DNA of 52,266 nt from a bacterium (lineage in GTDB: Bacteria; Patescibacteriota; Minisyncoccia; Phycocordibacterales; UBA918). Positions 145 through 36,179 of this stretch are shown here, piece by piece. Position numbers and translations under genes: made by a program. The stretch is taken from the NCBI GenBank assembly GCA_038145135.1, contig JAYQPD010000003.1, positions 1 through 52,266 of the forward strand, in the 5' to 3' direction. Positions within the stretch are counted from its first letter, which is position 1. Every line of letters starts with the position of its first letter. Below the pieces are notes generated by a model. The model saw only the letters and a program-made list of their open reading frames with translations. It was not told the DNA's origin and did no database searches.

Positions 145-1308
145 CTAGAATGTAGGCGTTGCGACGTATGTGAGTGTGGTACTGTAATCGTCACCTGCTT
201 CTTGGAGATCAGTGATCTCTACTTGATAGCCGATGCGTGTTGAGCCCACATTCGCTATTGCACCATCTGCCGGACCATTGTTTTCAAAGATCTGACGTGG
301 TGTTGTCGAGGCAGCGACCCACTTGTCGGTGCCAAATTCGTCGGCGTTGAGGTCGTCTTCTGAGGTGAGGCCCCAGTGACCCCATGTGCTTGTTGCGTTG
401 ACGTCACCAGAAGGAGTCTGCCATGTTGATGGCGAATTCGTATACTGGCCGTCAATGAATCCGTCAATGATTGCTCCAGTAGATGACTGAAGATCAGTGG
501 CTTGCTGAACTGTAACCACAAAGCCATTCTTGGCATTTGTCGATACAGTGAGATCCTGCGCCATTACCGTGGTTGTACCTGACACAAGGGTACCAAACGG
601 GATCGATGTCGCCGTAGAGGAACCTGCGGTCGTGGTTGCACCACCATTTACTGTTGAGCTTGTCGCTACACCAGAAATGCTGAAGGTGAATGTCGCATTT
701 ACGTCTGCAGTTACAACGACGTCGTCAATGATGGCAACGATCGTCGAACCGCTATCTTGCATACTTCCGGCGATCAGTATTTCATACGAACCAGCTGCGG
801 TCGGATTAGCAATGAAGCTATTACCTGTTGCACCTGCGGTCGCATTACTACCGATCTCAACGATCACTTCAGTACTTGAAGCGACTGTTGCAGCACCGAG
901 TGTAGTAGAACTCGTGTCGAGTGTGATGGTCGACGAAGTCGTCGCCACACCCCACGAGTCACCCGATCCTGTACCGTCTACAAGAGTGATCTCGACACCG
1001 CCTACCGTTACGTCTAGGTCATTGAAATCAAATCCAGCTGAAGGGAGGGTGAACTCACCTGCTGAAATTGGAAATGTAATGACAATGTTCTCACCATCGA
1101 TCAGTCCGTTAGGGACCGTGAAGGCAATGGTGTGGTTAGCGTTCACTCCAAGATCTGAATCAGAGAGTGTATCGCTGACCGACGTAAGGTTTGCTGCGTC
1201 AGCGTCACGGACAAATGTCGGTAGACCGAGACTCCAGAGGAGTATCGCGATACCAACGACACTTGCAACAACTTGAAGCATTCGCACGGCTTTTACCGTG
1301 TGAATCAT
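145..1308 (-). CDS. Secreted Thr/Ser/Gly-rich beta-type surface protein, family A copy 1 (paralog of 35010..36179); function unknown, tentatively WxL-like
   Basis: 387-aa ORF with an N-terminal hydrophobic signal/anchor (LQVVASVVGIAILLWSLGL...DADA). It shares long identical blocks with the 35010..36179 product (AGEFTLPSAGFDFNDLDVTVGGVEITL; YQVEITDLQEAGDDY). It ends in YSTTLTYVATPTF. A terminator lies just downstream. Confidence 0.8.
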   Translation of the reverse strand: MIHTVKAVRMLQVVASVVGIAILLWSLGLPTFVRDADAANLTSVSDTLSDSDLGVNANHTIAFTVPNGLIDGENIVITFPISAGEFTLPSAGFDFNDLDVTVGGVEITLVDGTGSGDSWGVATTSSTITLDTSSTTLGAATVASSTEVIVEIGSNATAGATGNSFIANPTAAGSYEILIAGSMQDSGSTIVAIIDDVVVTADVNATFTFSISGVATSSTVNGGATTTAGSSTATSIPFGTLVSGTTTVMAQDLTVSTNAKNGFVVTVQQATDLQSSTGAIIDGFIDGQYTNSPSTWQTPSGDVNATSTWGHWGLTSEDDLNADEFGTDKWVAASTTPRQIFENNGPADGAIANVGSTRIGYQVEITDLQEAGDDYSTTLTYVATPTF

Positions 1309-1323
1309 AGCTCTACGTTGTTA

Positions 1324-1581
1324 CTACTTTTTTGTCTTCGGTCGTTTTTTTGTAAAGGTTGTACGCTTCTTCGAGACCGTGCTCTTTCGGTAACGATGAT
1401 TCGTACTACTGTGAACTGAGAAGTCTCCACGGCTTCCTCGTTCTATGATGCGACCGATGACACGTTTGTCACAGTGGTACTCGGCTGCAAGCCCACGCTT
1501 ACTCAATGTGCCGTTCGCACGCACCCACTTCTCGTATATTTCCTTTCGGAGTACCGGAGTGAGCTTAGTGTTACTATGCAT
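1324..1581 (-). CDS. Small stand-alone helix-turn-helix protein resembling the N-terminal DNA-binding region of IS481-type transposases (no catalytic domain)
   Basis: The ORF spans 1324..1608. The ATG at 1581 gives MHSNTKLTPVLRKEIYEKW...GLAAEYHCDKRVIGRIIERG, which is similar to the MHxNxxLTP + HTH pattern at IS481-family N-termini. The tail is basic and Lys/Arg-rich. No DDE/rve ORF is adjacent. Confidence 0.4.
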   Translation of the reverse strand: MHSNTKLTPVLRKEIYEKWVRANGTLSKRGLAAEYHCDKRVIGRIIERGSRGDFSVHSSTNHRYRKSTVSKKRTTFTKKRPKTKK

Positions 1582-1594
1582 GTTTGAGTTTGCT

Positions 1595-1625
1595 AGCGTT
1601 GTCCCCACGCGATGGGGACAACGCT
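1595..1625 (-). promoter_or_regulatory. 13-bp perfect inverted repeat (candidate operator or 5' hairpin) 13 nt upstream of the HTH gene ATG
   Basis: AGCGTTGTCCCCA-cgcga-TGGGGACAACGCT at 1595-1607/1613-1625. Confidence 0.4.
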
Positions 1626-1661
1626 CTGTAGCAAACGCATATACATTGTACTCATGAAAAC

Positions 1662-1693
1662 AAAAAAAATCCTGAGTTATTCACAGGATTTTT
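1662..1693 (-). terminator. Rho-independent terminator of the dockerin-protein gene 1768..2919
   Basis: 7-bp stem AATCCTG/CAGGATT (1668-1674/1684-1690). It is preceded by A8 on the plus strand, which is a T8 tail on the minus strand. Confidence 0.65.
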
Positions 1694-1767
1694 CATAACA
1701 TGATCTTGATCGATGACTATGTGCGTACACTTCCCCCTTTTACACTCGCAGGGGACCAAGCACTCCT

Positions 1768-2919
1768 CTACCCTGTCCAGTTGAAGAGGAGGATCGAGAA
1801 GTCCTCAAGGCCAACGTTACCATTACCATTGATGTCAGCCGGTGGATTAGAGTTGCCTCCTGCCGTGCCCCACCAGAAGATAAGTATCGAGAAGTCGGTC
1901 AAATTGACCTTACCGTCTCGGTTCAGATCAGAACTACCAATGACTGGCTCTGCGTTTACGCCAACGCCAAACGAGAGTGTCGCTGAAAAGTTACTTTCCT
2001 TTTTTGTAGTTGCCGACACACCTTCAGTTATCGTGAACTTTGCTTTGACGGTATGAGACGCCTGCGAAAGACTTGAGCCTTCAAGAGTGTAGGACCACTT
2101 TCCAGACCCATCTGAGGATACCGTCTCTGTGCGAGCAGTGTTGTCAAATTGGAGTATGACTTGAGCACTAGGGATGGTATACCCACTAATGGTAAGCGTT
2201 CCGTTCCTTTCAATGCTCGAGGCAGACACCTTGATCGTTGGTGGAACATAGATTCCATTGACTGTGGTGACTGCCCCCTGGGTAACATCGAAGGTTGAGT
2301 TGAACGTTATGGAACGTGTCCGATCGGGATCGTTGGCCCAGAAACCCAGAGTGGTTGCACCTGGTTCGGCCGCAGTTGAGAATTGGAAGTCTCCCTTTGC
2401 ATTTGCCCGCACTGTACCAATAGTATCTCCGTCTTCAAGGATGCTTACCGTCACGTTAGGAAACGCTTTACCATTCACCGTAATACTAGTATCGCCAAGC
2501 TCTGTACTCCCACCACCTCCACCACCACCTGAAGAACCTGTCGTGTTACCACCACCTCCAGCAAGTGGTTCAATGGTACACGTTGCTGAGCAAAAGTCAC
2601 CTGAGTCATTATTGCCGTCATCACACTCCTCACTATATGTTGTCTGCAGAATACCGTCACCACAATACGGTCCGTATTGACACACTTCATTACACTGTCG
2701 ACCAGCGATCGTCGTTGAATACGTACCGATCTGTCCTGGTACGTCACACTCTTCATTCGAATCTATCAATGAGTCTCCACAAATAGAAATAGTGAGTGTG
2801 GTGGTAGCTATTTGAGTGGTCTCGTCGGCGTACACTACAGGGTTGCTCGAAGCAAGTGCAATGAGAATGAGACAGCTGCCGAATAGAAACGCCAGTGGTG
2901 TTGCGAATGCCCGAATCAT
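1768..2919 (-). CDS. Secreted protein with Cys-rich repeats, Gly-rich linker, Ig-like domain and C-terminal dockerin-type double EF-hand repeat
   Basis: 383-aa ORF with a signal peptide (LAFLFGSCLILIALASS). CGD..NEECD and CGDGILQTTYSEECDDGNNDSGDFCSATC resemble the Myxococcus-type cysteine-rich repeat. A G/S linker follows. The C-terminus DLNRDGKVNLTDFSILIFWWG...ADINGNGNVGLEDFSILLFNWTG is a dockerin type I-like duplicated Ca-binding motif. An ATGA overlap links it to the upstream gene at 2916-2919. Confidence 0.75.
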   Translation of the reverse strand: MIRAFATPLAFLFGSCLILIALASSNPVVYADETTQIATTTLTISICGDSLIDSNEECDVPGQIGTYSTTIAGRQCNEVCQYGPYCGDGILQTTYSEECDDGNNDSGDFCSATCTIEPLAGGGGNTTGSSGGGGGGGSTELGDTSITVNGKAFPNVTVSILEDGDTIGTVRANAKGDFQFSTAAEPGATTLGFWANDPDRTRSITFNSTFDVTQGAVTTVNGIYVPPTIKVSASSIERNGTLTISGYTIPSAQVILQFDNTARTETVSSDGSGKWSYTLEGSSLSQASHTVKAKFTITEGVSATTKKESNFSATLSFGVGVNAEPVIGSSDLNRDGKVNLTDFSILIFWWGTAGGNSNPPADINGNGNVGLEDFSILLFNWTG

Positions 2920-3884
2920 ACCTTACTCGAAGCTCGCGTTCTTCTACGAGCTGGAGCCGGTTTTGAACGTCGTGTAGAGCGCACGAGGATCAGAATGATC
3001 GAGACGAGTACTACGAATACCGGAACGAGTACAGAGAGCTTGTGTGCGAGTGAGAGGCCCATAAAGCCGTACCCAGCAGCTTGTAGGGTGCCATATGGCA
3101 AGATATTCATGTTAAGCTCGCCCTCTTGTTTGATCTCGTCTCCGTTAAAGATCTGATAGCGCGCCAAATACGTGCCTCGTGGAAGATGTGTGGGGAGTTC
3201 AGCAATAACCGTAGCTTGATCGAACGGATTGATCTTAGTGATCCTATTGGTATGTTCTGTTTCCTCAAGAAGTACTTGTCCAGAAGGGTCGTATATCCTA
3301 AAGACAACTTTAGATGGTGCGATCTTAACATTACCAATGTTCTCAAGGAACATTTCAAAATTGATCTTACCCGGGAAGTAGAGCCATCCAAGTTTATGAC
3401 CTTCGTTCAGATCTGAAAGACCGATCTTTCTTACACGGAAATCCTTTATTTGTTTATCGATGACCGTGATCTCAACATCCACCTGAGCACCGAGAGAGAT
3501 CGAAACAGCACCGCCAGCAACTTGTCCATCCGGAGCAGATGTCTTAATACGGAGATTACCAGTATACGTTTTGTAGGGAGCGTTATCAGGTACCTTGACC
3601 ACAACGGTCATGGGGACTTTGTCCTGTCCTGCAGGAAGTAAAAAGGAGTTTCCTTCTTTGATAGTGAACCAATCGTTGATACCAGGAACATCAACAGACA
3701 CATCAGCTTTAAGAGCTGAGGAGGGATCGCTTCGTACCAATAGAATCGTTTGTTCGTACGAGGCATTTCGAATCAAACTAGCATTGCGAACATAAGGAGG
3801 GGTGATACCAAAACCGGCATGTGCCTCAGGTACAAGGAACAAGAACAAAAGTACGGTCAGTAATACTCCGGTGAATTTACTCAT
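2916..3884 (-). CDS. Membrane-anchored two-domain beta-sandwich surface protein (DUF916/DUF3324-like architecture), copy 1
   Basis: 322-aa ORF. It has a signal peptide ending EAHA, two beta-rich domains (..VPMTVVVKVPDNAPYKTYTGNLRIKT..; ..FLENIGNVKIAPSK..), a C-terminal TM helix (VLVPVFVVLVSIILILV) and a basic tail (RSTRRSKPAPARRRTR). The architecture matches 33831..34904. Confidence 0.6.
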   Translation of the reverse strand: MSKFTGVLLTVLLFLFLVPEAHAGFGITPPYVRNASLIRNASYEQTILLVRSDPSSALKADVSVDVPGINDWFTIKEGNSFLLPAGQDKVPMTVVVKVPDNAPYKTYTGNLRIKTSAPDGQVAGGAVSISLGAQVDVEITVIDKQIKDFRVRKIGLSDLNEGHKLGWLYFPGKINFEMFLENIGNVKIAPSKVVFRIYDPSGQVLLEETEHTNRITKINPFDQATVIAELPTHLPRGTYLARYQIFNGDEIKQEGELNMNILPYGTLQAAGYGFMGLSLAHKLSVLVPVFVVLVSIILILVRSTRRSKPAPARRRTRASSKV

Positions 3885-3944
3885 GAACGAAACGCATTTA
3901 GCGCCGTCTTAGTAATTATCGAAGATATCAATGTCAATTGCAAG

Positions 3945-3972: not shown

Positions 3973-3990
3973 GTGCATAAGTATTTTTGT

Positions 3991-5826
3991 TTACCAATCA
4001 ACAGACTCACCGACAACTGCAATGAATGTGTTCTCACCTTTGTAATCACCTGCAAGTGTGATCGAACCAGGAACGCGGATACCCCAGATAGTATTTCCAG
4101 TTGCCTGTGTAACTGTACTGGTCGACTTCTGAACATTTACTTCCAACTCAGCTGCCGTTGTTGAAGAAAGTGCAGTTGCAAGTGCGTAAGTCGTTGAGGT
4201 GGTTGCGTATACTTGCTCAGATGCAGGAATGGTTGAAGTAGATGAATTAGCACAAGGGAATCCAGTTGCATAGTTGATACACATTGAATGTCCTTGAAGT
4301 GTTTCATCAAGACCTACGTTACCTGTTGCTGCAATAGTAGTTGTTGCTGAGATAGGGTCTGTCTGACTACCTGGTTCGAGAGAACCATACGGGATGGTGA
4401 GTGAGTTAAGTGCGAACGCAAGGAAGGAATTCACTTCAACACCAGTCTGAGATTCAGAAGCAGAGCTTGAGGCAGCGTTGTCATCTCCAACGATCACCTG
4501 TGCAAGCCAGTTTTGTGTTGAGTATTGAGTTGAGGTAGCGGTGCCATCTGTAGGGTCAGCGATGTACCAAAGTGGGAACGTACAGTCGTAGACTTGTGTA
4601 GTATCAGAGGCACCAGTACATGAGGTTGATGAGGCAGTACAACTGAAAGCCCACGTAGATGTTCCAATGGCGGTGTTATAGCAGTTGTTTGGATCGTAGT
4701 CGCCTGCGGTATTTGTTGTGCATGAAGTAGATGCAACACCAGAACGATAGAGTGAGAATTCATAGGTCGTGATCTCGCTGGTCGAAGCAGCATTGATACA
4801 ACTGTTATTATCAGCAGCTATGAACTGGAAGGTAAAACCAGACGTAGTAGCAGCTTCCTGAGTTAACGTGATGTCAGCGCCTCCGTTAATTGAGATGGTC
4901 GAGCTCGCAACTGTTGGTGTGGCATTTGCAACCGTGAGTGTTGAGTCTGTTCCCTGTGAACCACCAGACGCTTCAAAGCCGTGGTTGTCTATAACAAATC
5001 CGTATGCAGTGTAATTTTGGTCCTGTGTTGGAATAGTGACAGTGTATGTAGTGCTTGCATTTGATGAAGCAGGGACCGTTGACGATGCAATATAGCCACC
5101 TGGACCACACTCATTAGTGGAAGTACTGAAATCGTTATCATTACAGACGATAAGACGAACAGTATCAGCAGTACCAGACACGTCAGTATCTGAAGAAGTA
5201 CTCATGAAAGTGACCACCTGACCAGGAAGCGTTGGTGAGTCGTCGATGAACGCAGTGAACGTTGGGCGATGGTTAACCTCAAATGGTGTTGATGTTGTGC
5301 CAGTTCCCTGCTTATAGTCATTTACACAGCGTGGGTTGGTAGCATTATCGTCGCAGATCCATGCATACCAAGCATTCACTTCTGACCATGAGGCTGCAGT
5401 TGTTGTGGCTGCACGCGCTTGGGTAGCGCTAAGGGTAGAAGTTGAGACAGCCCACTGGTTGGTCGGTGAGTCACATTCAGGTGCTGCGCTTGCGTTAGGA
5501 GTTGGTGATGCTGCCGTCGAACAGATAAGGAGGTAGTATGGCTCGTCGTTCGAGTCAGTACCGATAGCAACCCATGATACAACGTCACCTGCATTAGTTG
5601 GGAAGTCTGATGACGATTCAAATTCCTCCTCAGCATCGACAGTCCATTGTGGCGGGGTGTTCAACACGGTTACTGATGTGGTCGCCACACTTTGTGCCTC
5701 CACTTGATTGAACGTTCCCTTGCTGACGTTGATGGTGAAAATGAATGCGAATGACAGAAGACCGAGAATACACGCAAAGACCGACACCTTGCCGGCAGTG
5801 GACACGTTATTTATGTTATACGCCAT
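3991..5826 (-). CDS. Secreted Cys- and Thr/Ser-rich protein whose C-terminal ~310 aa are homologous to the C-terminal module of the giant protein
   Basis: 611-aa ORF with an N-terminal anchor/signal (VSVFACILGLLSFAFIFTI). Its C-terminal region (LNSLTIPYGSLEPGSQTD...GNVGLDETLQG...GENTFIAVVGESVDW) parallels the giant-protein end (LEVTQSIDYGSLETESDTG...GNDAIDILLAG...GVNTFYATAD). Confidence 0.75.
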   Translation of the reverse strand: MAYNINNVSTAGKVSVFACILGLLSFAFIFTINVSKGTFNQVEAQSVATTSVTVLNTPPQWTVDAEEEFESSSDFPTNAGDVVSWVAIGTDSNDEPYYLLICSTAASPTPNASAAPECDSPTNQWAVSTSTLSATQARAATTTAASWSEVNAWYAWICDDNATNPRCVNDYKQGTGTTSTPFEVNHRPTFTAFIDDSPTLPGQVVTFMSTSSDTDVSGTADTVRLIVCNDNDFSTSTNECGPGGYIASSTVPASSNASTTYTVTIPTQDQNYTAYGFVIDNHGFEASGGSQGTDSTLTVANATPTVASSTISINGGADITLTQEAATTSGFTFQFIAADNNSCINAASTSEITTYEFSLYRSGVASTSCTTNTAGDYDPNNCYNTAIGTSTWAFSCTASSTSCTGASDTTQVYDCTFPLWYIADPTDGTATSTQYSTQNWLAQVIVGDDNAASSSASESQTGVEVNSFLAFALNSLTIPYGSLEPGSQTDPISATTTIAATGNVGLDETLQGHSMCINYATGFPCANSSTSTIPASEQVYATTSTTYALATALSSTTAAELEVNVQKSTSTVTQATGNTIWGIRVPGSITLAGDYKGENTFIAVVGESVDW

Positions 5827-6003
5827 ACTAAATAACGAACTTCATTACTTACTCAACAATTATACGCGTATATCAATTACCGTGCGGTGAGTTATACACA
5901 GGCCACAACAGTGGTCCAAAGTTCAATTTTGAATACGCGCTAGTTGGTGTTTGCGACGCTTACCCTACCCTGTTTGTGGCATGGACAGCGGAGATAGTGA
6001 GTG

Positions 6004-7212
6004 CTACTCGTACCTGATCGCATCCAATGGATTGAGTAGTGCAGCGCGACGAGCTGGGAAGATACCGGTCAGGTAGCCAACGATCGCTGAGAACGTCATG
6101 ATGAACATCAAGAACCAGAGCGGGAACGCGAAGAGCTTTACCGCTTGTCCGCCAAAGTGCGTCGCGACCGCGTTAAGGAATGTATTGATGATGACCCCGA
6201 TGCCGACACCCATAACGATACCTGAGACACCCCCAAGAAATCCTACCAGCACTGATTCCGAAACGAACAGAAGTTTAATATCGGTCGGTGATGCCCCGAT
6301 CATACGCATGACACCGATCTCTTTAGTACGTTCGAGAAGAGTCACCGTCATGGTGTTAAACATACCGATAGCAGACACAATAAGGGCTATACCGCCAAAT
6401 GCGGCGAGTACTGCCTGAATTCCTTGGAAGATCTTTGATGCTTGTTCTACAGTCTTTGAGAGTGCGGTCACACGAAACCCTTTCTCAATAAGGCCCTTTT
6501 CAACTGAATCGAGATTTGCGCTGTCATTTACACGTACTTGCGCTCGGTCGTAGATGTCGACACCGACATGACGCTTAAGTTCAGGCAACATGATGAGCGC
6601 ATTCAGCGCACCCTCTTCTTTGGTGATACCTTTGACGCGATACTGCTTGTCGATCACGATCTCATCAACCTGATCAGGGATCTCTTTAGAGGGGATGAGT
6701 AATCTGAATGAAACGGTCTGACCGATCATTTTCTCAGGATCATCTATCGCAAAGAGTTTGAGTACCGCTGGCGAAATAATGACACTAGTATCGTCTCCGG
6801 CGTCCTCATCAGTAAAAACATCGCCCGCGGACGCAGTGATGCCGCTATAGCGAATGTACGGTGGTTCAGCACCCTGGAGGAAGATGTTTCCAGTGAGACC
6901 TTTGTAGGTTATCAGTGCAGGAAATCGTCCAAGTGGTGCGGCGTCGAGTACGTTATCCATACGTTCTATCTCAGTAATGGTTTCGTCAGTGATCTGTATC
7001 GTGCGTGACCCTGTCGAAGAAACGCCGAGAGAGAGAAGCGTCTCACCAAACACGATCTGCTCAAGAATGATCTGTTGGAGACCAAAACCCAAACCTACGA
7101 GCATCACCACAGCGCCGGTACCCACACCCATACCCAAAATAGTAAGCCACGTACGCATTGGATTCGTTTTGAACATGCGGGTAGATAGTGATGCAAGATC
7201 GACAACGCGCAT
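6004..7212 (-). CDS. ABC transporter permease, FtsX/MacB type, with a large extracytoplasmic domain
   Basis: 402 aa. TM1 (WLTILGMGVGTGAVVMLVGLGFG) is followed by a ~230-aa extracytoplasmic loop. The C-terminal three-TM FtsX module carries LLERTKEIGVMRMIGASPTDIKLLF and ends FPARRAALLNPLDAIRYE. Confidence 0.9.
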   Translation of the reverse strand: MRVVDLASLSTRMFKTNPMRTWLTILGMGVGTGAVVMLVGLGFGLQQIILEQIVFGETLLSLGVSSTGSRTIQITDETITEIERMDNVLDAAPLGRFPALITYKGLTGNIFLQGAEPPYIRYSGITASAGDVFTDEDAGDDTSVIISPAVLKLFAIDDPEKMIGQTVSFRLLIPSKEIPDQVDEIVIDKQYRVKGITKEEGALNALIMLPELKRHVGVDIYDRAQVRVNDSANLDSVEKGLIEKGFRVTALSKTVEQASKIFQGIQAVLAAFGGIALIVSAIGMFNTMTVTLLERTKEIGVMRMIGASPTDIKLLFVSESVLVGFLGGVSGIVMGVGIGVIINTFLNAVATHFGGQAVKLFAFPLWFLMFIMTFSAIVGYLTGIFPARRAALLNPLDAIRYE

Positions 7213-7222: not shown

Positions 7223-8545
7223 TTACTTTTTGTAGTTTACATCAACACCTTGCGCAATAAGCTTCTCAAGGTAACGGGTAATGTCATCAGCCACCGATTT
7301 ATTCAAGCCAAGACCGTGGCCTCTACTTTTCGAGACTAGCAGTTCAGTAAAATCATCATCGTTCGAAACACCGGTGACACGGTCGGCGATCAGCTCAGCG
7401 ATTCGTTCTTGTTGTTTTTCGCTCAAACGCACCCCATGGCCCTCAATTAAATACTCCTTGAGGCGGTCGGCAAACTTGTGCTGTTCGAAAAACGCTGTGT
7501 CGTTCTTATTGTGAGCTCGGTACCTTCTTATGTCATCAGCCTGTTGGACGATCTTGACCGCAAGGTCGGCCATATGCTCCGCTGTTGCACGATCGAGTCC
7601 TACACCGCCTTCATCGTACTTGCGTACCAAGACAGAAATGAAGTTTTTCTTGTGTATCTTACCTTTGATGAGTTGTAATATAGCATGTTCAAGTCGTACG
7701 ATCTGGTCGAATGTGTAGTCTTGCGTCAGGTAGTTGACCAAGCTTTTAACACGTAGCGTGTCGATCGAGTCATAGGGGAAGAGACGTGCAAGCTGCTCGA
7801 GTTCGGTAACGATGGTTTCTCCTTCATGCACTGTTTTTATCTGCTTGCGCTGCGGATTCACCACCTCGCGGACCACAAGCCCATCTTTAAGGTAGTACAC
7901 GCGGTGAGCATACTGAAGATGAGCCGCATTGTGAGAGACCATGATGATCGTTCGTTTATCAAATGTATTGATCTCGTCGATCTTATCCATAACCTGTTGG
8001 GTAGACACGCTATCGAGGTTACCCGTTGGCTCATCGGCAAGAAGGATGCGCGGATCATTGACCATCGACCGTGCAACCGACACACGCTGCTGCTGACCTC
8101 CTGAGAGCATTGAGGGGATCTTATGAGAGACTTGCCCTACTCCAAAACGGTCAAGGAGCGACTGCGCGCGACGATCACGAGAGGCCTTATCACGGTTCGC
8201 AAAGATCATCGGCAGCGCAACGTTGTCCAAGACAGAAAGCGAACCGATCAAGTTGAACGATTGGAAGATGATCCCCATCACGTGACGCTGGAAGAACACA
8301 CGCTCAGAAGGAGGGTACGCGTAGATATCATCACCATCAATAAGCATGGTACCTCCAGATGGTGGGAGTGCCCCCTGGATCGCATACATCAAGGTAGATT
8401 TTCCTGAACCTGACGTGCCGAAAAGAATGATGTACTCACCTTCATAGATGTCAGTATTCACGTTCGTGAGCGCTTTGAACTCATTCGATTTACCGCGATT
8501 GTATGTGATGTCGAGGTTTCGACAGATGATAAGTGGTTTTGCCAT
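7223..8545 (-). CDS. ABC transporter ATP-binding protein (MacB/LolD-like) with a ~215-aa uncharacterised helical C-terminal extension
   Basis: Walker A GTSGSGKST, Q-loop FQSFNL, signature LSGGQQQR, Walker B ILLADEPTGNLD and H-loop VSHN are all present. I placed the start at the ATG at 8545 (MAKPLIICRNL), 15 nt after the upstream stop. The ORF-track start at 8584 would overlap the preceding gene. Confidence 0.9.
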   Translation of the reverse strand: MAKPLIICRNLDITYNRGKSNEFKALTNVNTDIYEGEYIILFGTSGSGKSTLMYAIQGALPPSGGTMLIDGDDIYAYPPSERVFFQRHVMGIIFQSFNLIGSLSVLDNVALPMIFANRDKASRDRRAQSLLDRFGVGQVSHKIPSMLSGGQQQRVSVARSMVNDPRILLADEPTGNLDSVSTQQVMDKIDEINTFDKRTIIMVSHNAAHLQYAHRVYYLKDGLVVREVVNPQRKQIKTVHEGETIVTELEQLARLFPYDSIDTLRVKSLVNYLTQDYTFDQIVRLEHAILQLIKGKIHKKNFISVLVRKYDEGGVGLDRATAEHMADLAVKIVQQADDIRRYRAHNKNDTAFFEQHKFADRLKEYLIEGHGVRLSEKQQERIAELIADRVTGVSNDDDFTELLVSKSRGHGLGLNKSVADDITRYLEKLIAQGVDVNYKK

Positions 8546-8559
8546 ATGTATGTGCCCTG

Positions 8560-10119
8560 CTAGCCGCCGATGTTCTTGACCCAACCGAAGGTGCCCTGGA
8601 AGTTTTCAATGATGATGTCGATGATGTTCTTCTCCTTGATCGGCGTAAAGAGTACGAAGTCTTCTGACTCGACTGAGTTTGTCTGCTCATCTTCACAGAT
8701 AAGTGAGAATTTATACACGGTCGCTGGAGCAAAATCGGTGATCACTTCGACGTGACGCTCAGTGTAGCTCTTGTCCTCTGACTCGAGGATGGTTGGATCG
8801 GTACCCGCCTGAAGACCTTCACGGTACGAGAGTACGCACAGTGCCGGCTCGTCGGTCAGCCACTCAATGATCGTCTGAATGCGGGCCTCACTTCCCGGGA
8901 AGAGTGTAGATTCGTTGGTTACGTTCGAGATGATCGGTGGTGCGGTATCTTTCGCGGTCACAAAGGTGATCGGATTTGACTTTACGCGGTCACCACCGGC
9001 ATTCTCAGCGATCACGAACGCAACGTAGCGCGCACCGAGTACGAGGCCATCGATCTGCATCTGGTTGGATGCAGCGTAGGTTGGCCGACCTTTTGAGTTC
9101 TGCTCCCCATTCGTGAGATTCTGATACTCCACAAGCGCCTTCGCAGGTACGGTGGTATCCCATGCGAGGGTCGCCGAGTTCTCTTCTACCTTAAGCACCC
9201 GCAGGTTTCTGATCTGCGGAAGAGATGCCTTGGTCTTAAAGGTATAGTCACGACTCTCACCAGTGATGTCATAGGTATCGGTCGACTTCACCTTGAAGTG
9301 GTACTCAGTGAATGGTTCGAGACCGATGAGGCGCACTTCATGATCGGTCGTTGCATCGCCGGTTGATGACTGCGAGAGTGCGTACTGACCTTCTATAAAG
9401 CTGTCTGCGGGAGAGAACACCACCTCAGACGTCGCCTCACGGTCGGTCGTCCATTTAACAGTCGCGGAAGTAGTCTCGGCGATAACTGTCGGGGGACCAA
9501 CAATAGTGAGATCCTCTGTGATGCCTTGGATCGCCTTCACCGTCTCGTTCAAGATCTCCTTCAGTTGCTCTGGTGAGGTGATCTGTTGTAACGCCTCTAT
9601 CGCCTGTTGAGTTGCGGTCTGGTTGTTTGTTGCGGTATCGGTACTACTGTTACTTCCCTGTCCGTTCCCGTTGCCATTTCCAGCTTGCGTTGCCTGACCC
9701 TGCCCCTCCGCAGCGCCCTGCCCGGCCGCGGTCCCATTGCCATTTTGCTGTGAATCTCCTTTTGTCTCGATCTGATAGTCTGCAGAGATACCTTGGTTGC
9801 CATCCTCATCGGCTGACACGACACGGAAGTGATACTTTCTTCCAGGTTCGAGGTTCTCAAGCAAGATCTCGTGCTGCTGTTTATCTGCTACTGGTATGCG
9901 CACGATGCCGTAATCCTCCTGTAGACCATAATTCACGAGCGAATCGGAATCCTCATCGGTTTCCCAGGTGATCTTAAGCGAGTTCTCGGTCACATCGGTC
10001 ACTTCAACATTTGAGATATCTGGGGGTGTGGTATCAGCAGCTAGCACAATAGTCGCATTGCTCTCGAGTAGTACGAGATACAAAAGAAGATACGCGAGCG
10101 ATCGCTTCCACGCGTGCAT
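8560..10119 (-). CDS. Secreted protein with four fibronectin type III-like domains and a Gly/Asn/Gln low-complexity linker
   Basis: 519 aa with a signal peptide (LAYLLLYLVLLESNATIVLA). Four repeats follow the pattern PP.ISNV.V....S..I.W.TDE.S.S.V.YG...Y, for example LEPGRKYHFRVVSADEDGN and LEPFTEYHFKVKSTD. The linker is GNGTAAGQGAAEGQGQATQAGNGNGNGQG. Confidence 0.8.
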   Translation of the reverse strand: MHAWKRSLAYLLLYLVLLESNATIVLAADTTPPDISNVEVTDVTENSLKITWETDEDSDSLVNYGLQEDYGIVRIPVADKQQHEILLENLEPGRKYHFRVVSADEDGNQGISADYQIETKGDSQQNGNGTAAGQGAAEGQGQATQAGNGNGNGQGSNSSTDTATNNQTATQQAIEALQQITSPEQLKEILNETVKAIQGITEDLTIVGPPTVIAETTSATVKWTTDREATSEVVFSPADSFIEGQYALSQSSTGDATTDHEVRLIGLEPFTEYHFKVKSTDTYDITGESRDYTFKTKASLPQIRNLRVLKVEENSATLAWDTTVPAKALVEYQNLTNGEQNSKGRPTYAASNQMQIDGLVLGARYVAFVIAENAGGDRVKSNPITFVTAKDTAPPIISNVTNESTLFPGSEARIQTIIEWLTDEPALCVLSYREGLQAGTDPTILESEDKSYTERHVEVITDFAPATVYKFSLICEDEQTNSVESEDFVLFTPIKEKNIIDIIIENFQGTFGWVKNIGG

Positions 10120-26966: not shown

Positions 26967-27029
26967 TGTCTCCACAACAATGGGCCCACACACAAATTAT
27001 GTGGCTAGAGTGAGGGCCAGTTTAAAGTA

Positions 27030-33830: not shown

Positions 33831-34904
33831 TCAGGCTACCAAGAATAGGAGCGCTATCAGGAAGAGTGCGGTGACAGTGAGAAGGGTTACCGCAACGATA
33901 GAGAGGCGTGTCACTCCCCTGCCGCGACTTCGGTACGATGATCCGCGGCGAGTCGGTACCTGGTATCGCTCGAGAGTGCGCCTAATATGGAGTCGTACAC
34001 CGAAGTACACAACAACAACAATAAGTACGAGGATGCCAAGGATCGGTAGGATCACATTAAGTGGTAACACCCAGAATGAGATCGTTGAAGCGATCGTGGT
34101 GTCGTGCCCGTCCTCGCCATAGATAAGTGCGACTATGCCTTGGTAACGTCCAATAGCAAAATCCTTACTGTCCCAGGTCACATCAAATGCGCGAATACTT
34201 CCAGGGAATACACCACCAAGGGTGTCATTGACCACAAGGGTCTCCACCTTCTTTCCGAACATGTTACGGATCTCGAGTGGACCGCGTGGACGAACTAGAA
34301 CATTACCCCCGTTCTCAACCCGAGTACTGAAGGTGACCTTGGGTGAACTATAGACGAGTTTATCAGTTGAAAATGAACGGATCGATGCAACCTCGTTCGC
34401 CTCCCCAGCAATGCGGATCGAGATAATGGTCCCTACCTCGTAACCTACAGCCGCACCAGTAGCACGAAGGCGAGGTGGTGTCATGGTCACGAAGAGACCG
34501 GCGAAGTGACTCCCTGGTGTTGCAGTATCAGGCACGCGGATGGTGACCGGAACATCTGCCGCAGCACCAGGCTGAAGCACGATCGGTTCTTCAGATACCT
34601 CGATCCATGACGACATCTCGTATCCGGTCTGTTCAGCACCCTCTTCAGCAAAAACAGGTTGGTTGTTCGAGGCAACACCAGTGATATCACGATGGAGGAG
34701 GTAATAGGTCTGTTCAGAAGAACTGATGTTGCGAATGGTGAGTGTCTCTTCAAGTATCGCACCAGGCGCCAATCCCTCCTCTATGATGGCAGGTTGTATC
34801 TGCACACCAGCAGATTGCTGAGCGTGTACTGTAGATGGAGAAAGCGGAGCGAGTAGAAGGACAGAAAGAAAAGCAAAAACGAACGTTTTAAAAAATGAAC
34901 GCAT
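33831..34904 (-). CDS. Membrane-anchored two-domain beta-sandwich surface protein (DUF916/DUF3324-like architecture), copy 2
   Basis: 357 aa with a signal peptide ending VHA. Key motifs are SSWIEVSEEPIVLQPGAAADVPVTIRVPDTATPGSHFAGLFVT and STRVENGGNVLVRPRG. C-terminal TM helices follow (ILPILGILVLIVVVVYFGV plus a second). It is comparable to 2916..3884. Confidence 0.6.
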   Translation of the reverse strand: MRSFFKTFVFAFLSVLLLAPLSPSTVHAQQSAGVQIQPAIIEEGLAPGAILEETLTIRNISSSEQTYYLLHRDITGVASNNQPVFAEEGAEQTGYEMSSWIEVSEEPIVLQPGAAADVPVTIRVPDTATPGSHFAGLFVTMTPPRLRATGAAVGYEVGTIISIRIAGEANEVASIRSFSTDKLVYSSPKVTFSTRVENGGNVLVRPRGPLEIRNMFGKKVETLVVNDTLGGVFPGSIRAFDVTWDSKDFAIGRYQGIVALIYGEDGHDTTIASTISFWVLPLNVILPILGILVLIVVVVYFGVRLHIRRTLERYQVPTRRGSSYRSRGRGVTRLSIVAVTLLTVTALFLIALLFLVA

Positions 34905-34965
34905 GTGCGAATTGATTACTACACTATAGTAACATGAGGCAAATCCTACTCAATCGACATATACA

Positions 34966-34992
34966 CAAAAACCGCTCGTAAGAGCGGTTTTT
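34966..34992 (-). terminator. Rho-independent terminator of CDS 35010..36179
   Basis: ACCGCTC-gtaa-GAGCGGT flanked by A5 and T5. Confidence 0.7.
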
Positions 34993-35009
34993 GTAACGTT
35001 TCATCGTCG

Positions 35010-36179
35010 TTAGAAGGTCGGTGTTGCGATATACGTAAGTGTAGTAGTGTAGTCGTCGCCTGCTTCCTGGAGATCAGTGATCTCAACCTGGTAGCCAACT
35101 CGTGTGTACCCTACGTTTGCTGTTGTGCCATCTGCTGGTCCACTGTTCTCGAATACCTGACGTGGTGTGGTCGATGCTGCGACCCACAGGTCAGCTCCGA
35201 ACTCATCAGTGTTGAGGTCGTCTTCTGAAGTGAGACCCCAGTGACCGTACGTGCTTTCAACGCCTACCTGATTAGATGGTGTTTGCCAACTGCCAGGTGT
35301 GTTAAGGTACGTGCCGTCATAGAATCCATCGATGTCTGCACCAGTTGATGACTTCAAGTTATCGCTTTGCTCAACGGTGACCACGAAACCGTGGGTCGCG
35401 TTGGTGCTGACACGAAGGTCTTGTGCCATCATCGTGGTTGTGCCTGAGACAAGCGTACCGAATGGTATCGATGTTGCGGTTGATGACGCTGCGGTTGTCG
35501 TTGGACTTCCGTTCACTGTTGAGGTTGTTGCAACTCCTTCGATCGTAAAGGTGAACGTTGCATCAATGTTTGCAGTGACAACGACATCATCGATGATCGC
35601 TACCATGGCTGTACCTGAATCGTTTGTTGAAACGATCTCTATCTGTCGCGACCCAGCACTTGTTGGGTTGACGATAAAGCTGTTACCGGTTGCGCCTGCT
35701 GTGGCATTGTTACCGATCTCAACAACAACTGCAGTACTTGAACCGACGGTTGCTGCACCAAGTGTTGTGGAGCTCGTGGTCAACGTGATCGTTGACGTTG
35801 TAGTTGAGACTCCCCATGTATCACCTGAAGGTGATGTGCCCAATGTGATCTCTACTCCACCTACAGTGACGTCAAGGTCGTTGAAGTCGAAGCCTGCCGA
35901 TGGAAGTGTGAACTCGCCGGCCGTTATTGGGAATGTGATCACGATCGTTTCGCCATCCACTAATCCTGTTGGAGTAGTGAATCCGATCGTGTGGTTTGAA
36001 TTCACACCCAAGTCGGAATCTGAAAGCGTATCACTCACATACGTGAGGTTTGCGGCGTCTGCCCTATTTTGGAAGGGCGTGATGCCGAGCGTCCAGAGTA
36101 CGAGTGCCATCACAATGAGCGTCGCGATCGCCCGAAGCGGACGAGCCGCTTCTCTGTGAAGAATGTACATGTACTTCAT
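35010..36179 (-). CDS. Secreted Thr/Ser/Gly-rich beta-type surface protein, family A copy 2 (paralog of 145..1308)
   Basis: The ORF runs to 36272, but the ATG at 36179 (MKYMYILHREAARPLRAIATLIVMALVLWTLG) gives a length (389 aa) and signal position matching the paralog. The ATG at 36170 is also possible. It ends in YTTTLTYIATPTF. Confidence 0.8.
   Translation of the reverse strand: MKYMYILHREAARPLRAIATLIVMALVLWTLGITPFQNRADAANLTYVSDTLSDSDLGVNSNHTIGFTTPTGLVDGETIVITFPITAGEFTLPSAGFDFNDLDVTVGGVEITLGTSPSGDTWGVSTTTSTITLTTSSTTLGAATVGSSTAVVVEIGNNATAGATGNSFIVNPTSAGSRQIEIVSTNDSGTAMVAIIDDVVVTANIDATFTFTIEGVATTSTVNGSPTTTAASSTATSIPFGTLVSGTTTMMAQDLRVSTNATHGFVVTVEQSDNLKSSTGADIDGFYDGTYLNTPGSWQTPSNQVGVESTYGHWGLTSEDDLNTDEFGADLWVAASTTPRQVFENSGPADGTTANVGYTRVGYQVEITDLQEAGDDYTTTLTYIATPTF

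What the first reader, a model, noticed from the sequence alone, without database searches (positions are those of the whole stretch)
145..36179. 36-kb single-strand surface-protein island bracketed by direct paralogous gene pairs: candidate new cell-surface assembly system
Seventeen consecutive minus-strand genes encode almost only exported proteins. Both ends carry the same pair: a family-A secreted protein (145..1308; 35010..36179) and a signal + two beta-sandwich + TM protein (2916..3884; 33831..34904). This resembles the Firmicutes Csc/WxL clusters, which contain WxL proteins, a DUF916/DUF3324 membrane protein and an LPXTG protein. Here the set is expanded with a giant adhesin, cohesin/dockerin parts and a MacB-type ABC transporter, and a sortase plus sorted adhesin lie 4 kb away. 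The directly repeated paralogs retain long stretches of DNA similarity, so they could also mediate deletion or inversion-free recombination of the whole island.
Basis: inference. Interest (0 to 1): 0.7.

Follow-up and report, generated by a model that had tools for sequence, protein, structure and literature searches.

The report
Pam-like pilus/adhesin locus of Paceibacteria
This 36-kb gene block from an uncultured ultra-small (CPR/Paceibacteria) bacterium most likely builds a cell-surface fibre and adhesin apparatus, assembled by membrane-anchored chaperones related to the WxL-interacting proteins of Gram-positive bacteria and probably related to the recently described CPR "Pam" pili.

Summary
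The gene layout is real. The two family-A genes are 75% identical in protein. The two "signal + two beta-sandwich + TM" genes are only about 25% identical. The claimed long DNA similarity is absent: 68.5% identity, longest exact run 18 nt.

The DUF916 guess holds. 33 of 35 homologues of the 33831-34904 protein hit Pfam WxLIP_PGBD. Its family profile matches Firmicute WxLIP (hhalign 97.5%, E 5.5e-12). Its AlphaFold model's best PDB matches are E. faecium WxLIP, then chaperone-usher pilus chaperones.

Family A is not a detectable WxL protein. It is a two-domain protein with a conserved inter-domain strand. Its C-terminal domain weakly but consistently matches NCBIfam "CPR Pam pilus pilin" (17/31 members). 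A bridging subfamily at the C-terminus of large proteins matches it 24/24.

Gene order is conserved across Paceibacteria species genomes, and family-A copies lie 34-42 kb apart in at least 8 genomes.

Best reading: a divergent, enlarged Pam-type donor-strand fibre and adhesin locus, with a cohesin-dockerin module, a 5,573-aa adhesin and a MacB ABC transporter. It is a new variant of a known kind. Filament formation is inferred, not shown.

The parts
145..1308 (-). Family-A protein 1 (387 aa), the candidate major fibre subunit. It has a signal peptide (AxA), an N-terminal beta-sandwich (about residues 39-193), a conserved linker strand (194-206, IIDDVVVTAxVxT) and a C-terminal domain (207-387).
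   Evidence: AF2 model with pLDDT 81 shows two beta domains and a coil linker. NCBIfam CPR_Pam_pilin_C matches residues 233-387 at E 0.0043 and covers the whole model. The family has at least 1,969 homologues and no Pfam match. Linker and CTD are more conserved than the NTD.
1324..1608 (-). Small basic ORF (85-94 aa) that looks HTH-like by eye. A possible regulator just upstream of family-A gene 1.
   Evidence: ORF listed. An 81-aa gene sits at the same position in L001 and L003. No Pfam or NCBIfam hit.
1768..2919 (-). Secreted protein with Cys-rich DUF4215 repeats, Ig-like domains and a C-terminal dockerin.
   Evidence: Pfam DUF4215 6.5e-10, Big_6, Dockerin_1 2.4e-6. Its C-terminal 240 aa are 42% identical to 29339-31195. 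Present in 20/20 g1-type loci.
2916..3884 (-). WxLIP-like membrane-anchored chaperone candidate 2 (322 aa). It has a signal peptide, two beta-sandwich domains, one C-terminal TM helix and a basic tail.
   Evidence: Its family aligns to the g15 family by hhalign at 98.6%, E 5.9e-16. The direct match to Firmicute WxLIP is weak, E 0.0035. It always lies directly after the 611-aa gene, in 20/20 loci.
3991..5826 (-). 611-aa exported protein whose C-terminal ~340 aa (a Cys-rich module plus a terminal ~160-aa domain, 'B-type CTD') is shared with the giant protein.
   Evidence: BLASTP to the giant protein's C-terminus gives 30%/342 aa, E 1e-18. The B-type CTD occurs in 806 representative clusters, always at the extreme C-terminus. 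No Pfam or NCBIfam family matches.
6004..7212 (-). MacB/LolCE/FtsX-type ABC permease with an extracytoplasmic domain.
   Evidence: MacB_PCD 3e-18 and FtsX 7e-16. NCBIfam MacB and LolCE hits. Syntenic in 20/20 loci.
7223..8584 (-). ABC ATPase (cytoplasmic) with a ~220-aa C-terminal extension.
   Evidence: ABC_tran 4.4e-32 over residues 39-187 of 453. LolD-, FtsE- and MacB-like.
8560..10119 (-). Secreted protein with several fibronectin type III domains. Its 3' end overlaps the ABC ATPase start.
   Evidence: fn3 1.4e-22 in 3 stretches and Pur_ac_phosph_N. Syntenic in 18/20 loci.
10272..26993 (-). Giant 5,573-aa surface protein with an N-terminal TM/signal, a Pro/Thr/Ser-rich stalk, DUF2341 and Ig-like domains, and a B-type CTD at its C-terminus. 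A candidate adhesin.
   Evidence: ORF. DUF2341 2.2e-12 and Ig_Rha78A_N. Orthologues of 5,488-5,649 aa sit at the same position in L001, L003/L004 and L006.
27102..28634 (-). Membrane-anchored cohesin protein. It has a signal peptide, a cohesin domain, a Pro/Thr linker, fn3/Ig domains, a TM helix and a cytoplasmic coiled-coil tail. The likely receptor for the two dockerin proteins.
   Evidence: Cohesin 2.9e-6 (27.9 bits, cut-off 24.1) and fn3 3.2e-5. Syntenic.
28638..29105 (-). Hsp20/alpha-crystallin small heat-shock protein (cytoplasmic). Its stop lies 3 nt from the cohesin gene start.
   Evidence: HSP20 7e-10. Present in 21 of 23 g16-type loci.
29339..31195 (-). 618-aa protein with a family-A-type N-terminal domain but no family-A CTD, followed by Ig-like domains, a Gly-rich linker and a C-terminal dockerin.
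   Evidence: hhalign to family A residues 8-200 gives 98.4%, E 7.4e-15. Dockerin_1 2.9e-8. Syntenic.
31416..33112 (-). Two tandem membrane-anchored FGE-sulfatase-fold proteins (275 and 290 aa, 52% identical). An accessory component: copy number is 0-3 in relatives.
   Evidence: PF03781 9.9e-16 and 1e-11. 52% identity. Variable presence.
33235..33639 (-). Small protein (134 aa) with two TM segments flanking a coiled coil.
   Evidence: Sequence. Follows the WxLIP-like gene in 22 of 23 loci. No family match.
33831..34904 (-). WxLIP-like membrane-anchored chaperone candidate 1 (357 aa). It has a signal peptide, two Ig-like beta-sandwich domains and two C-terminal helices.
   Evidence: Its own Pfam WxLIP_PGBD hit is E 0.0035, below cut-off, but 33/35 homologues hit, best 3.9e-9. 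AF2 pLDDT 85.6. Foldseek top hits are 9i1y and 9i25_C (E. faecium WxLIP, E 6.6e-12), then CfaA, Caf1M, PapD, FimC and CsuC. The profile hits EfmWxLIP1 at E 1.3e-4. hhalign to Firmicute WxLIP gives 97.5%.
35010..36179 (-). Family-A protein 2 (389 aa), the second candidate fibre subunit. Its signal peptide belongs to a different orthologous lineage from gene 1.
   Evidence: 75% identical to 145-1308. CPR_Pam_pilin_C matches residues 235-389 at E 1.4e-4. Signal-peptide lineages.

Best explanation
The island is a conserved Paceibacteria (CPR) locus for a chaperone-assisted, usher-less cell-surface fibre and adhesin apparatus. It is a divergent and enlarged relative of the Pam pilus of Ca. Mycosynbacter amalyticus. 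Its chaperones are homologues of the Firmicute WxL-interacting proteins (DUF916/DUF3324).

Proposed mechanism; the steps below are inferred unless marked as shown:
1. All structural parts are exported by Sec. Signal peptides are visible in the sequences.
2. The two membrane-anchored two-Ig-domain proteins (33831-34904 and 2916-3884) cap the incomplete C-terminal domains of their neighbouring client proteins by inserting a beta-strand. WxLIP is predicted to do this with WxL, and PapD/FimC/PamC/D are reported or proposed to do it with pilins.
3. The two family-A proteins polymerise head to tail. The conserved linker strand between their two domains has hydrophobic residues at every second position (V197, V199, A201, V203, F207, F209). 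It replaces the chaperone strand in the C-terminal domain of the preceding subunit.
4. Large proteins that carry an acceptor-type C-terminal domain but no linker act as distal adhesins or as separately held surface adhesins. Here these are the 611-aa and 5,573-aa proteins, served by the second chaperone.
5. The membrane-anchored cohesin protein holds the two dockerin proteins at the surface. One of them carries a family-A-type N-terminal domain and may connect the fibre base to the membrane.
6. The MacB-type ABC transporter, the fn3 protein, the FGE-fold proteins, Hsp20 and the small TM protein are conserved accessories whose roles are unresolved.

Shown: the homologies, domain architectures and synteny. 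Inferred: polymerisation, client-chaperone pairing and anchoring.
For: Chaperone side:
- Pfam WxLIP_PGBD hits in 33/35 family members.
- The PDB sequence hit is to EfmWxLIP1 only.
- hhalign to 7 Firmicute WxLIP gives 97.5%, E 5.5e-12 over both domains. The second copy joins the family at 98.6%.
- The AF2 model (pLDDT 85.6) best matches WxLIP, then chaperone-usher chaperones and RbmA.

Subunit side:
- The AF2 two-domain model has an unstructured linker. This matches the published Pam pilin plan of NTD sandwich, single linker strand and CTD (paper read).
- NCBIfam CPR_Pam_pilin_C is the only family hit repeatedly: 17/31 members, best 4.2e-6, whole model covered.
- The same CTD occurs at the C-terminus of 1,155- and 1,880-aa proteins in related genomes, without the linker.
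- That subfamily is homologous to the family-A CTD (hhalign 99.8%, E 1.3e-28). It hits CPR_Pam_pilin_C 24/24 (best 1.7e-8) and PamT 3/24.
- Linker and CTD are more conserved than the NTD, as reported for Pam pilins.
- In L011 and L015 the linker+CTD halves of the two paralogues are homogenised (100% and 89-98% DNA identity) while the NTD halves are 53-68% identical. This fits a shared polymerisation module.

Locus side:
- The client gene lies directly upstream of its WxLIP-like gene in all loci, the same order as WxL then WxLIP in 7 Firmicute loci.
- Gene order is conserved in 42 of 44 fully flanked loci from species-representative genomes.
- Two pilin and two chaperone genes in one locus mirrors the pam operon.
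Against: - Every hit to the Pam pilin model is far below NCBI's cut-off (17-32 bits against 55).
- No direct comparison with the PamA-D sequences or structures was possible. They were not retrievable, and no Pam chain is in the PDB copy.
- The C-terminal domain of the window's own large proteins (B-type) shows no significant similarity to the family-A CTD, the Pam models or WxL.
- The family-A-like dockerin protein keeps only the start of the linker (VAIVDQVTVGPAD), so its role as a donor or terminator is doubtful.
- Family A has no cysteines, whereas PamA/B have disulfide pairs (paper).
- No ATP-synthase neighbourhood is present, unlike the reported Pam loci.
- The flanking UmuDC and CAP genes are as syntenic as the island itself, so part of the co-conservation is shared ancestry rather than functional coupling.
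- No multimer prediction could be run, and filaments have never been observed for this lineage here.
Confidence: 0.55

Rival explanations
1. A non-polymerising WxL/Csc-type surface display complex. The WxLIP-like membrane proteins simply hold family-A and the large adhesins on the cell surface by strand insertion, one to one. No filament forms, as currently proposed for Firmicute WxL clusters.
For: - WxLIP homology is the strongest single result.
- The cluster logic matches the WxL cluster definition read: a small and a large client sharing a C-terminal domain, plus a TM-anchored two-Ig protein.
- The C-terminal strand motif is alike. Family A ends DYSTTLTYVATPTF; E. faecalis WxL ends EYSTTITWNLVEGP; pXO1 WxL ends YESKLTYSIVTGP.
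- The best local hhalign matches fall on the two WxL motifs.
Against: - WxL similarity is not significant: 0/31 Pfam hits and hhalign E 0.03-0.05.
- Family A has an extra N-terminal domain and a highly conserved linker with an alternating hydrophobic pattern. A monomeric anchor would not need these.
- The consistent hits go to Pam pilin models.
- Large proteins with the same CTD lack the linker, as tip subunits do.
Confidence: 0.25
2. Family A is an S-layer or other sheet-forming envelope protein. The island is a general envelope and adhesin gene neighbourhood kept together by ancestry rather than by one assembly pathway.
For: - Family A is very widespread and highly conserved in Paceibacteria: at least 1,969 hits and 244 stretches in species genomes.
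- It is usually present in two copies.
- The flanking unrelated genes (UmuDC, CAP) are equally syntenic.
- The 2916-3884 protein has a weak hit to a putative S-layer family (E 3.4e-4).
Against: - No similarity to any S-layer family was found for family A.
- The tight pairing of client and WxLIP-like genes, the Pam pilin hits and the modular homogenisation of linker+CTD point to a strand-exchange module.
Confidence: 0.1
3. The directly repeated paralogous pairs are recombination substrates that delete or reshuffle the whole 35-kb island.
For: Gene conversion between the two family-A paralogues clearly occurs in other genomes. In the L011 tandem pair the 3' ~600 nt are 100% identical. NTD identity within this genome (80%) exceeds that to orthologues (~60%).
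Against: - In this window the copies share 68.5% DNA identity and at most 18 identical bases in a row. Synonymous sites are largely randomised: 41% identical codons at identical residues.
- The second pair has no DNA similarity.
- The two-copy, 34-42 kb arrangement is stably conserved in at least 8 species genomes.
- No inverted or long direct repeats are present.
Confidence: 0.03

Closest known systems
Pam pilus system of Candidatus Mycosynbacter amalyticus (CPR, Saccharimonadia). Source: Troman et al., bioRxiv 10.64898/2026.03.03.709456.
   Same: - Sec-exported two-domain subunits: beta-sandwich NTD, single linker strand, C-terminal Ig-like acceptor domain.
- Two paralogous major subunits in one locus.
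- Two signal-peptide + two-Ig-domain + C-terminal-TM chaperone-like proteins.
- No usher or other trans-envelope machine.
- Relatives with a CTD but no linker, as in PamT.
- Restricted to CPR.
- The NCBIfam Pam pilin C model is the only family consistently hit.
   Different: - Hits are far below the family cut-off.
- This locus is in Paceibacteria, whereas the paper reports mainly Saccharimonadia and Microgenomatia.
- No cysteines in the subunits.
- The locus is about 36 kb or more.
- It adds a 5,573-aa protein and a 611-aa protein with a different C-terminal domain, a cohesin-dockerin module, a MacB ABC transporter, an fn3 protein, FGE-fold proteins and Hsp20.
- No RbmA-like PamR was recognised as such.
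- No ATP-synthase neighbourhood.
Firmicute WxL / Csc clusters: small WxL, large WxL and WxLIP (DUF916-DUF3324-TM). Sources: PMC10599100, PMC9772566, PDB 9i1y/9i25.
   Same: - The WxLIP-like proteins are true homologues by sequence profile and by fold.
- Clients carry the shared domain at the extreme C-terminus, in small and large versions.
- The client gene immediately precedes the WxLIP gene.
- A sortase substrate lies nearby.
   Different: - The client domains are not detectably WxL: no W-x-L pair and no Pfam hit.
- The subunit has an extra N-terminal domain and a conserved linker.
- The PF11797 (DUF3324) model is not hit, although hhalign and Foldseek cover the second domain.
- The phylum and the scale of the locus are different.
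Classical and archaic chaperone-usher pili of Gram-negative bacteria (Pap, Fim, Caf1, CFA/I, Csu).
   Same: - The chaperone-like fold: Foldseek hits to CfaA, Caf1M, PapD, FimC and CsuC at E 1e-10 to 1e-7.
- The proposed donor-strand logic.
- Tip adhesins with a C-terminal pilin domain, as in FimH and PapG.
   Different: - No outer membrane and no usher.
- The chaperones are membrane-anchored.
- The donor strand is an internal linker rather than an N-terminal extension.
- The subunits have two domains.
Cellulosome-type cohesin-dockerin anchoring.
   Same: One membrane-anchored cohesin protein and two dockerin-bearing secreted proteins in the same locus, above Pfam cut-offs.
   Different: No carbohydrate-active enzymes. 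The module is embedded in an adhesin/fibre locus and probably serves only as a tether.

Membership tests
WxL / Csc cluster (definition of Hassan et al., PMC10599100) | At least one WxLIP: signal peptide, DUF916 (PGBD) domain, DUF3324 (HBD) domain and a C-terminal TM helix. | tested here: met
   For 33831-34904: 33/35 homologues hit PF06030. hhalign against Firmicute WxLIP gives 97.5% over 223 columns spanning both domains. Top Foldseek hits are 9i1y/9i25_C. TM helices appear in the AF2 model. The protein itself is below the Pfam cut-off (17.8 against 27.3 bits), and PF11797 is not hit.
WxL / Csc cluster | At least two WxL-domain proteins (dual Trp-x-Leu motifs, C-terminal domain) within four genes of the WxLIP. 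| tested here: not met
   0/31 family-A members and 0/28 members of the 611-aa family hit Pfam WxL, even at permissive E-values. hhalign against 8 real WxL domains gives E 0.03-0.33, with only motif-length matches. No WxL chain is among the 50 best PDB fold matches of the family-A model.
WxL / Csc cluster | Small and large client proteins share the C-terminal domain. | tested here: inconclusive
   The pattern exists, but with other domains. The B-type CTD is shared by the 611-aa and 5,573-aa proteins. The family-A CTD is found on 1,155- and 1,880-aa proteins in related genomes.
CPR Pam pilus (bioRxiv 10.64898/2026.03.03.709456; NCBIfam NF058581, NF058579) | Pilin C-terminal domain belongs to the Pam pilin family. 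| tested here: inconclusive
   NF058581 covers its whole length on both window proteins, but at 17-22 bits against a cut-off of 55. 17/31 homologues hit, best 4.2e-6. The bridging large-protein CTD subfamily hits 24/24, best 1.7e-8, and is homologous to the family-A CTD at 99.8%.
CPR Pam pilus | Two-domain pilin: nine-strand beta-sandwich NTD, single linker (donor) strand, and an open Ig-like CTD. | tested here: met
   The AF2 model (pLDDT 81) has the NTD at 40-193, a coil linker at 194-206 and the CTD at 207-387. This is a prediction only. The conserved alternating hydrophobic linker is seen. CTD confidence is lower than NTD confidence, as might be expected if a strand is missing.
CPR Pam pilus | Membrane-anchored PapD/FimC-like chaperones (PamC, PamD) encoded in the locus. 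| tested here: met
   Two such genes are present. Fold matches to CfaA, Caf1M, PapD, FimC and CsuC, plus C-terminal TM helices. Direct homology to PamC/PamD sequences could not be tested.
CPR Pam pilus | Tip pilin PamT (CTD without linker) and RbmA-like terminator/anchor PamR (2 FnIII + TM). | tested here: inconclusive
   No PamT-like gene is in the window. Related genomes have CTD-only-type large proteins, and 3/24 hit NF058579 weakly. The cohesin+fn3+TM protein (27102-28634) is a possible functional analogue of PamR, but it matches no Pam model.
CPR Pam pilus | Assembly into helical filaments by donor-strand exchange. | not testable with these tools
   No multimer prediction or experiment was available.
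CPR Pam pilus | Conserved neighbourhood with ATP synthase genes. | tested here: not met
   None of the 27 ORFs of the 52-kb window has an ATP-synthase domain.
Chaperone-usher pili | Outer-membrane usher and periplasmic soluble chaperone. | tested here: not met
   No usher domain in any ORF. The chaperone-like proteins are membrane-anchored.
Sortase-assembled Gram-positive pili | Pilin subunits with a sorting signal, polymerised by a pilus-specific sortase inside the locus. | tested here: not met
   Family A ends in ...ATPTF with no sorting signal or C-terminal TM. The sortase and SpaA-type protein lie 4 kb outside the island and form their own conserved unit.

The most novel reading that the evidence does not exclude
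The locus may reveal one ancient, membrane-anchored-chaperone pathway for strand-complemented surface structures in bacteria without an outer membrane. On this reading, Firmicute WxL clusters, CPR Pam pili and this Paceibacteria locus are homologous systems, and WxLIP = PamC/D-type chaperone. In the largest CPR class the pathway would have been elaborated into a fibre that carries a 5,573-aa adhesin, is tethered through a cohesin-dockerin joint, and is serviced by a MacB-type mechanotransmission ABC transporter. WxL proteins would then be degenerate or short-polymer relatives of pilins.
Probability: 0.3. Interest if true: 0.8.

Novelty: new variant of a known kind. Interest (0 to 1): 0.6.

Why it matters
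Paceibacteria (Parcubacteria) are among the most abundant and least understood bacteria. Almost nothing is known about how they attach to hosts.

If this reading is right, three things follow:
- One of their most conserved gene blocks encodes the attachment apparatus.
- Pam-type fibres extend well beyond the lineages in which they were reported.
- The apparatus has an unexpected set of add-ons: a giant adhesin, a cohesin-dockerin tether and a MacB transporter.

The reading also gives a testable link between two literatures that the papers searched here do not connect. The WxL/WxLIP virulence clusters of enterococci, listeriae and lactobacilli may be relatives of donor-strand pili, with WxLIP acting as a membrane-anchored chaperone.

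If the reading is wrong, the locus is still a large, conserved and wholly unannotated surface-protein system, with two new C-terminal domain families that can be used to find CPR adhesins.

Tried and rejected
1. Direct WxL membership of family A and of the 611-aa/giant C-terminal domain: Pfam and NCBIfam scans of whole families were negative. I fetched real WxL clusters from Enterococcus, Bacillus, Listeria, Pediococcus, Lactiplantibacillus and Melissococcus plasmids. I built WxL and WxLIP alignments from them and ran hhalign. Only the WxLIP side was significant.
2. Homology between the family-A CTD and the B-type CTD of the window's large proteins was not significant: E 0.015-0.27, with only the IP[FY]G motif aligned.
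3. PDB sequence searches with the family-A, large-CTD and B-CTD profiles found nothing. A WxL-like query written from memory also found nothing and was discarded.
4. Foldseek of the whole family-A model gave generic two-Ig-domain adhesins with low TM-scores. It was not decisive.
5. The search meant to bridge to annotated Pam pilins with the divergent large-protein CTD returned only 30 unnamed fragments. These did prove useful for the NCBIfam scan.
6. Promoter and terminator consensus scans gave no more sites than shuffled sequence, so the operon structure is unresolved.
7. The recombination/deletion idea was rejected for this window on DNA identity.
8. The Ca. M. amalyticus pam operon could not be retrieved with the scans available, so no direct Pam comparison was made.
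9. The idea that the family-A-like dockerin protein is a chain terminator was weakened. Only the first residues of the linker are retained.

Full report
**1. What is in the sequence**

The window carries an unbroken run of minus-strand ORFs from 145 to 44516. Family searches give the following:
- 1768-2919: DUF4215 Cys-rich repeats, Ig-like domains and a dockerin.
- 6004-7212: MacB_PCD + FtsX permease.
- 7223-8584: ABC ATPase.
- 8560-10119: several fn3 domains.
- 10272-26993: a 5,573-aa protein with DUF2341 and an Ig-like domain.
- 27102-28634: cohesin + fn3 + TM.
- 28638-29105: Hsp20.
- 29339-31195: Ig-like domains and a dockerin.
- 31416-33112: two FGE-sulfatase-fold proteins.
- Outside the island: UmuC, UmuD, a CAP protein, a sortase and a SpaA-type adhesin.

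Homologue names place the contig in Candidatus Parcubacteria/Paceibacteria (CPR).

**2. The observation**

The two family-A proteins are 74.7% identical. The two "signal + two beta-sandwich + TM" proteins are distant paralogues: 24.6% identity by BLASTP and a family-family hhalign of 98.6%.

The stated DNA similarity does not hold. The family-A genes share 68.5% DNA identity with a longest exact run of 18 nt. Only 41% of identical residues use the same codon. The other pair is 49% identical. No long repeats were found. Three products are cytoplasmic.

**3. The two-sandwich membrane proteins are WxLIP-like chaperone candidates**

- The 33831-34904 protein alone hits Pfam WxLIP_PGBD (DUF916) below threshold. 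However, 33 of 35 homologues hit it, best 3.9e-9. NCBI already names some of them DUF916 proteins.
- The family profile finds only E. faecium EfmWxLIP1 in the PDB (E 1.3e-4).
- I retrieved genuine WxL clusters from Firmicute plasmids. The CPR family aligns to their WxLIP proteins over both domains (hhalign 97.5%, E 5.5e-12).
- The AlphaFold model (pLDDT 85.6) shows a signal peptide, two beta-sandwiches and C-terminal helices.
- Its best PDB fold matches are WxLIP (9i1y, and 9i25 bound to a long WxL). Next come the chaperone-usher chaperones CfaA, Caf1M, PapD, FimC and CsuC, and RbmA.
- The second copy (2916-3884) joins through the first.

**4. Family A is not WxL but looks like a Pam-type pilin**

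Family A has no Pfam match. It is very large and conserved: at least 1,969 hits, and 244 stretches in species genomes.

The AlphaFold model (pLDDT 81) has an N-terminal beta-sandwich, an unstructured segment at 194-206 and a C-terminal beta domain. The segment IIDDVVVTAxVxTxFTF carries conserved hydrophobic residues at every second position. Together with the C-terminal domain it is more conserved than the N-terminal domain.

NCBIfam returns one recurring family, CPR_Pam_pilin_C. It covers its full length on both window proteins (E 0.0043 and 1.4e-4) and on 17/31 homologues (best 4.2e-6). All hits are below the curated cut-off.

The 2026 preprint on Pam pili describes this plan:
- two-domain pilins joined by a single donated linker strand;
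- two paralogous major pilins;
- membrane-anchored PapD/FimC-like chaperones PamC and PamD;
- a linker-less tip pilin PamT;
- a membrane-anchored terminator PamR;
- no dedicated trans-envelope machine.

It reports the system mainly in Saccharimonadia and Microgenomatia. It does not mention WxL, DUF916 or Paceibacteria.

**5. A bridging subfamily**

An HMM of the family-A C-terminal domain finds the same domain at the extreme C-terminus of 1,155-aa and 1,880-aa proteins in related genomes. These proteins align from the first CTD strand to the C-terminal Y..TYI..P.F motif but lack the conserved linker. Tip subunits behave this way.

This subfamily is clearly homologous to the family-A CTD (hhalign 99.8%, E 1.3e-28). 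All 24 of its members hit CPR_Pam_pilin_C (best 1.7e-8), and 3 hit the PamT model. This is the best evidence tying family A to Pam pilins. It remains sub-threshold and indirect.

**6. WxL tested directly**

Real WxL domains end in ...YSTTITWNLVEGP, and the one on pXO1 ends in ...YESKLTYSIVTGP. Family A ends in ...DYSTTLTYVATPTF.

hhalign places its best local matches on the two WxL motifs, but the scores are not significant (E 0.03-0.05). Membership of the WxL domain family is therefore not met. A deep relationship is possible but unproven.

**7. The large proteins**

The 611-aa and 5,573-aa proteins share a C-terminal ~340-aa region. Its last ~160 aa define a domain found in 806 representative clusters, always at the extreme C-terminus of ~600-aa or giant proteins. 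It matches no known family. It is not significantly similar to the family-A CTD, the Pam models or WxL.

The 611-aa gene is always followed directly by the second WxLIP-like gene, in 20/20 loci. Family A is always followed by the first WxLIP-like gene. WxL genes precede WxLIP in the Firmicute loci in the same way. I infer client-chaperone pairs.

**8. Cohesin-dockerin module**

The 29339-31195 protein begins with a family-A-type N-terminal domain (hhalign 98.4%) and ends in a dockerin. 1768-2919 also ends in a dockerin. 27102-28634 is a membrane-anchored cohesin.

A tether to the membrane is the simplest reading. A terminator role for the family-A-like dockerin protein is doubtful, because only the start of the linker is kept.

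**9. Conservation**

Three metagenomic contigs and one MAG show the same order. Forty-four species-genome loci have full 10-kb flanks. They divide as follows:
- 20 show giant - fn3 - ABC - MacB - 611-aa - WxLIP-like - dockerin - family A - cohesin.
- About 22 show (sortase) - CAP - UmuD - UmuC - family A - WxLIP-like - small TM - FGE (0-3 copies) - dockerin - Hsp20 - cohesin - giant.

Two family-A copies lie 34-42 kb apart on one contig in at least 8 genomes. They are tandem in others. The flanking UmuDC and CAP genes are equally syntenic, so synteny alone does not prove functional coupling.

**10. Paralogue evolution**

Signal peptides define two old lineages. Linker+CTD halves are nevertheless homogenised within genomes: 100% DNA identity over ~600 nt in L011 and 89-98% in L015, against 53-68% in the 5' halves. 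In this genome the N-terminal domains are 80% identical, against ~60% to orthologues.

This supports a shared polymerisation module and shows gene conversion. It does not show island deletion.

**11. Verdict**

The most likely function is a chaperone-assisted, usher-less fibre and adhesin apparatus of the Pam type (confidence about 0.55).

Rivals:
- A non-polymerising WxL-like display complex (0.25).
- An S-layer or merely ancestral neighbourhood (0.1).
- A recombination cassette (0.03).

It is a new variant of a known kind. The system is extended to Paceibacteria, much enlarged, and links Pam-type chaperones to WxLIP.

Filament formation, pairing and anchoring are inferences. Multimer prediction and direct comparison with the Pam proteins would decide them.

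Noticed in passing
L011 8605-11131 and L015 9989-12533 (related genomes); window 145-1308 vs 35010-36179: The two family-A paralogues show mosaic concerted evolution with a sharp breakpoint at the NTD/linker boundary. The 3' ~600 nt (linker+CTD) are 100% (L011) or 89-98% (L015) identical in DNA, while the 5' halves are 53-68% identical. Signal peptides define two ancient lineages. In the window the NTDs are 80% identical, against ~60% to orthologues.
   Followed up: partly
window 31209-31252, 31321-31364, 33089-33132: A 44-nt motif (TACCCCGTAGTGAGAG... on the + strand) occurs three times. One copy is just 5' of the start of 29339-31195, one lies in the preceding intergenic region, and one overlaps the annotated GTG start of 32240-33112, whose true start is probably a downstream ATG. 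It may be a shared 5'-UTR or regulatory element.
   Followed up: no
window 28638-29105: A cytoplasmic Hsp20 gene is embedded in the surface-protein locus, 3 nt upstream of the cohesin gene. It is kept there in 21 of 23 related loci. It may be a holdase for the very large secreted precursors.
   Followed up: no
window 7223-8584: The ABC ATPase has a ~220-aa C-terminal extension beyond the nucleotide-binding domain. Its gene overlaps the end of the fn3 protein gene. The fn3-ABC-MacB trio is conserved in 18-20 of 20 loci.
   Followed up: no
window 1324-1608 (-): A small basic ORF (85-94 aa) with an HTH-like stretch lies directly upstream of family-A gene 1. An 81-aa gene occupies the same place in L001 and L003. 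It matches no known family.
   Followed up: partly
L001 11437-15679, L003 12052-16368, L005 12178-16364: In relatives the locus continues past the family-A gene at the window's left edge. The extra genes encode a 336-374-aa protein, a second cohesin protein (581-596 aa), a 196-221-aa protein and a 252-aa dockerin protein. The window therefore probably cuts the island.
   Followed up: partly
window 36465-44516 and 50335-52262: UmuC, UmuD-like S24 peptidase, a CAP-domain membrane protein, a sortase and a 1,214-aa SpaA-repeat protein lie on the same strand, and their position relative to the island is conserved. The SpaA-repeat protein ends in a PNTG-like motif followed by a hydrophobic tail. A second SpaA-repeat protein lies at 50335-51963.
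   Followed up: partly
window 44730-47036 (+): Two paralogous, very acidic repeat proteins lie on the opposite strand. The first has a peptidoglycan-binding PG_binding_1 domain. Their Asp/Glu-rich ~60-aa repeats match no known family.
   Followed up: no
L011-L085, record titles: Many species genomes carrying family A are titled 'uncultured Candidatus Saccharibacteria' in bulk TPA assemblies. Others are titled Kaiserbacteria, Nomurabacteria or Paceibacteria. The titles may be generic labels, so the true class-level spread of family A was not settled.
   Followed up: no
L094 (B. anthracis pXO1) 5313-7074: pXO1 carries a WxL + WxLIP pair whose WxL domain ends in LTY rather than LTW, so the second 'WxL' tryptophan is not invariant even in annotated WxL proteins. 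Flp-pilus-type genes (CpaB and an AAA family ATPase) lie about 4 kb upstream of the pair in the same stretch.
   Followed up: no
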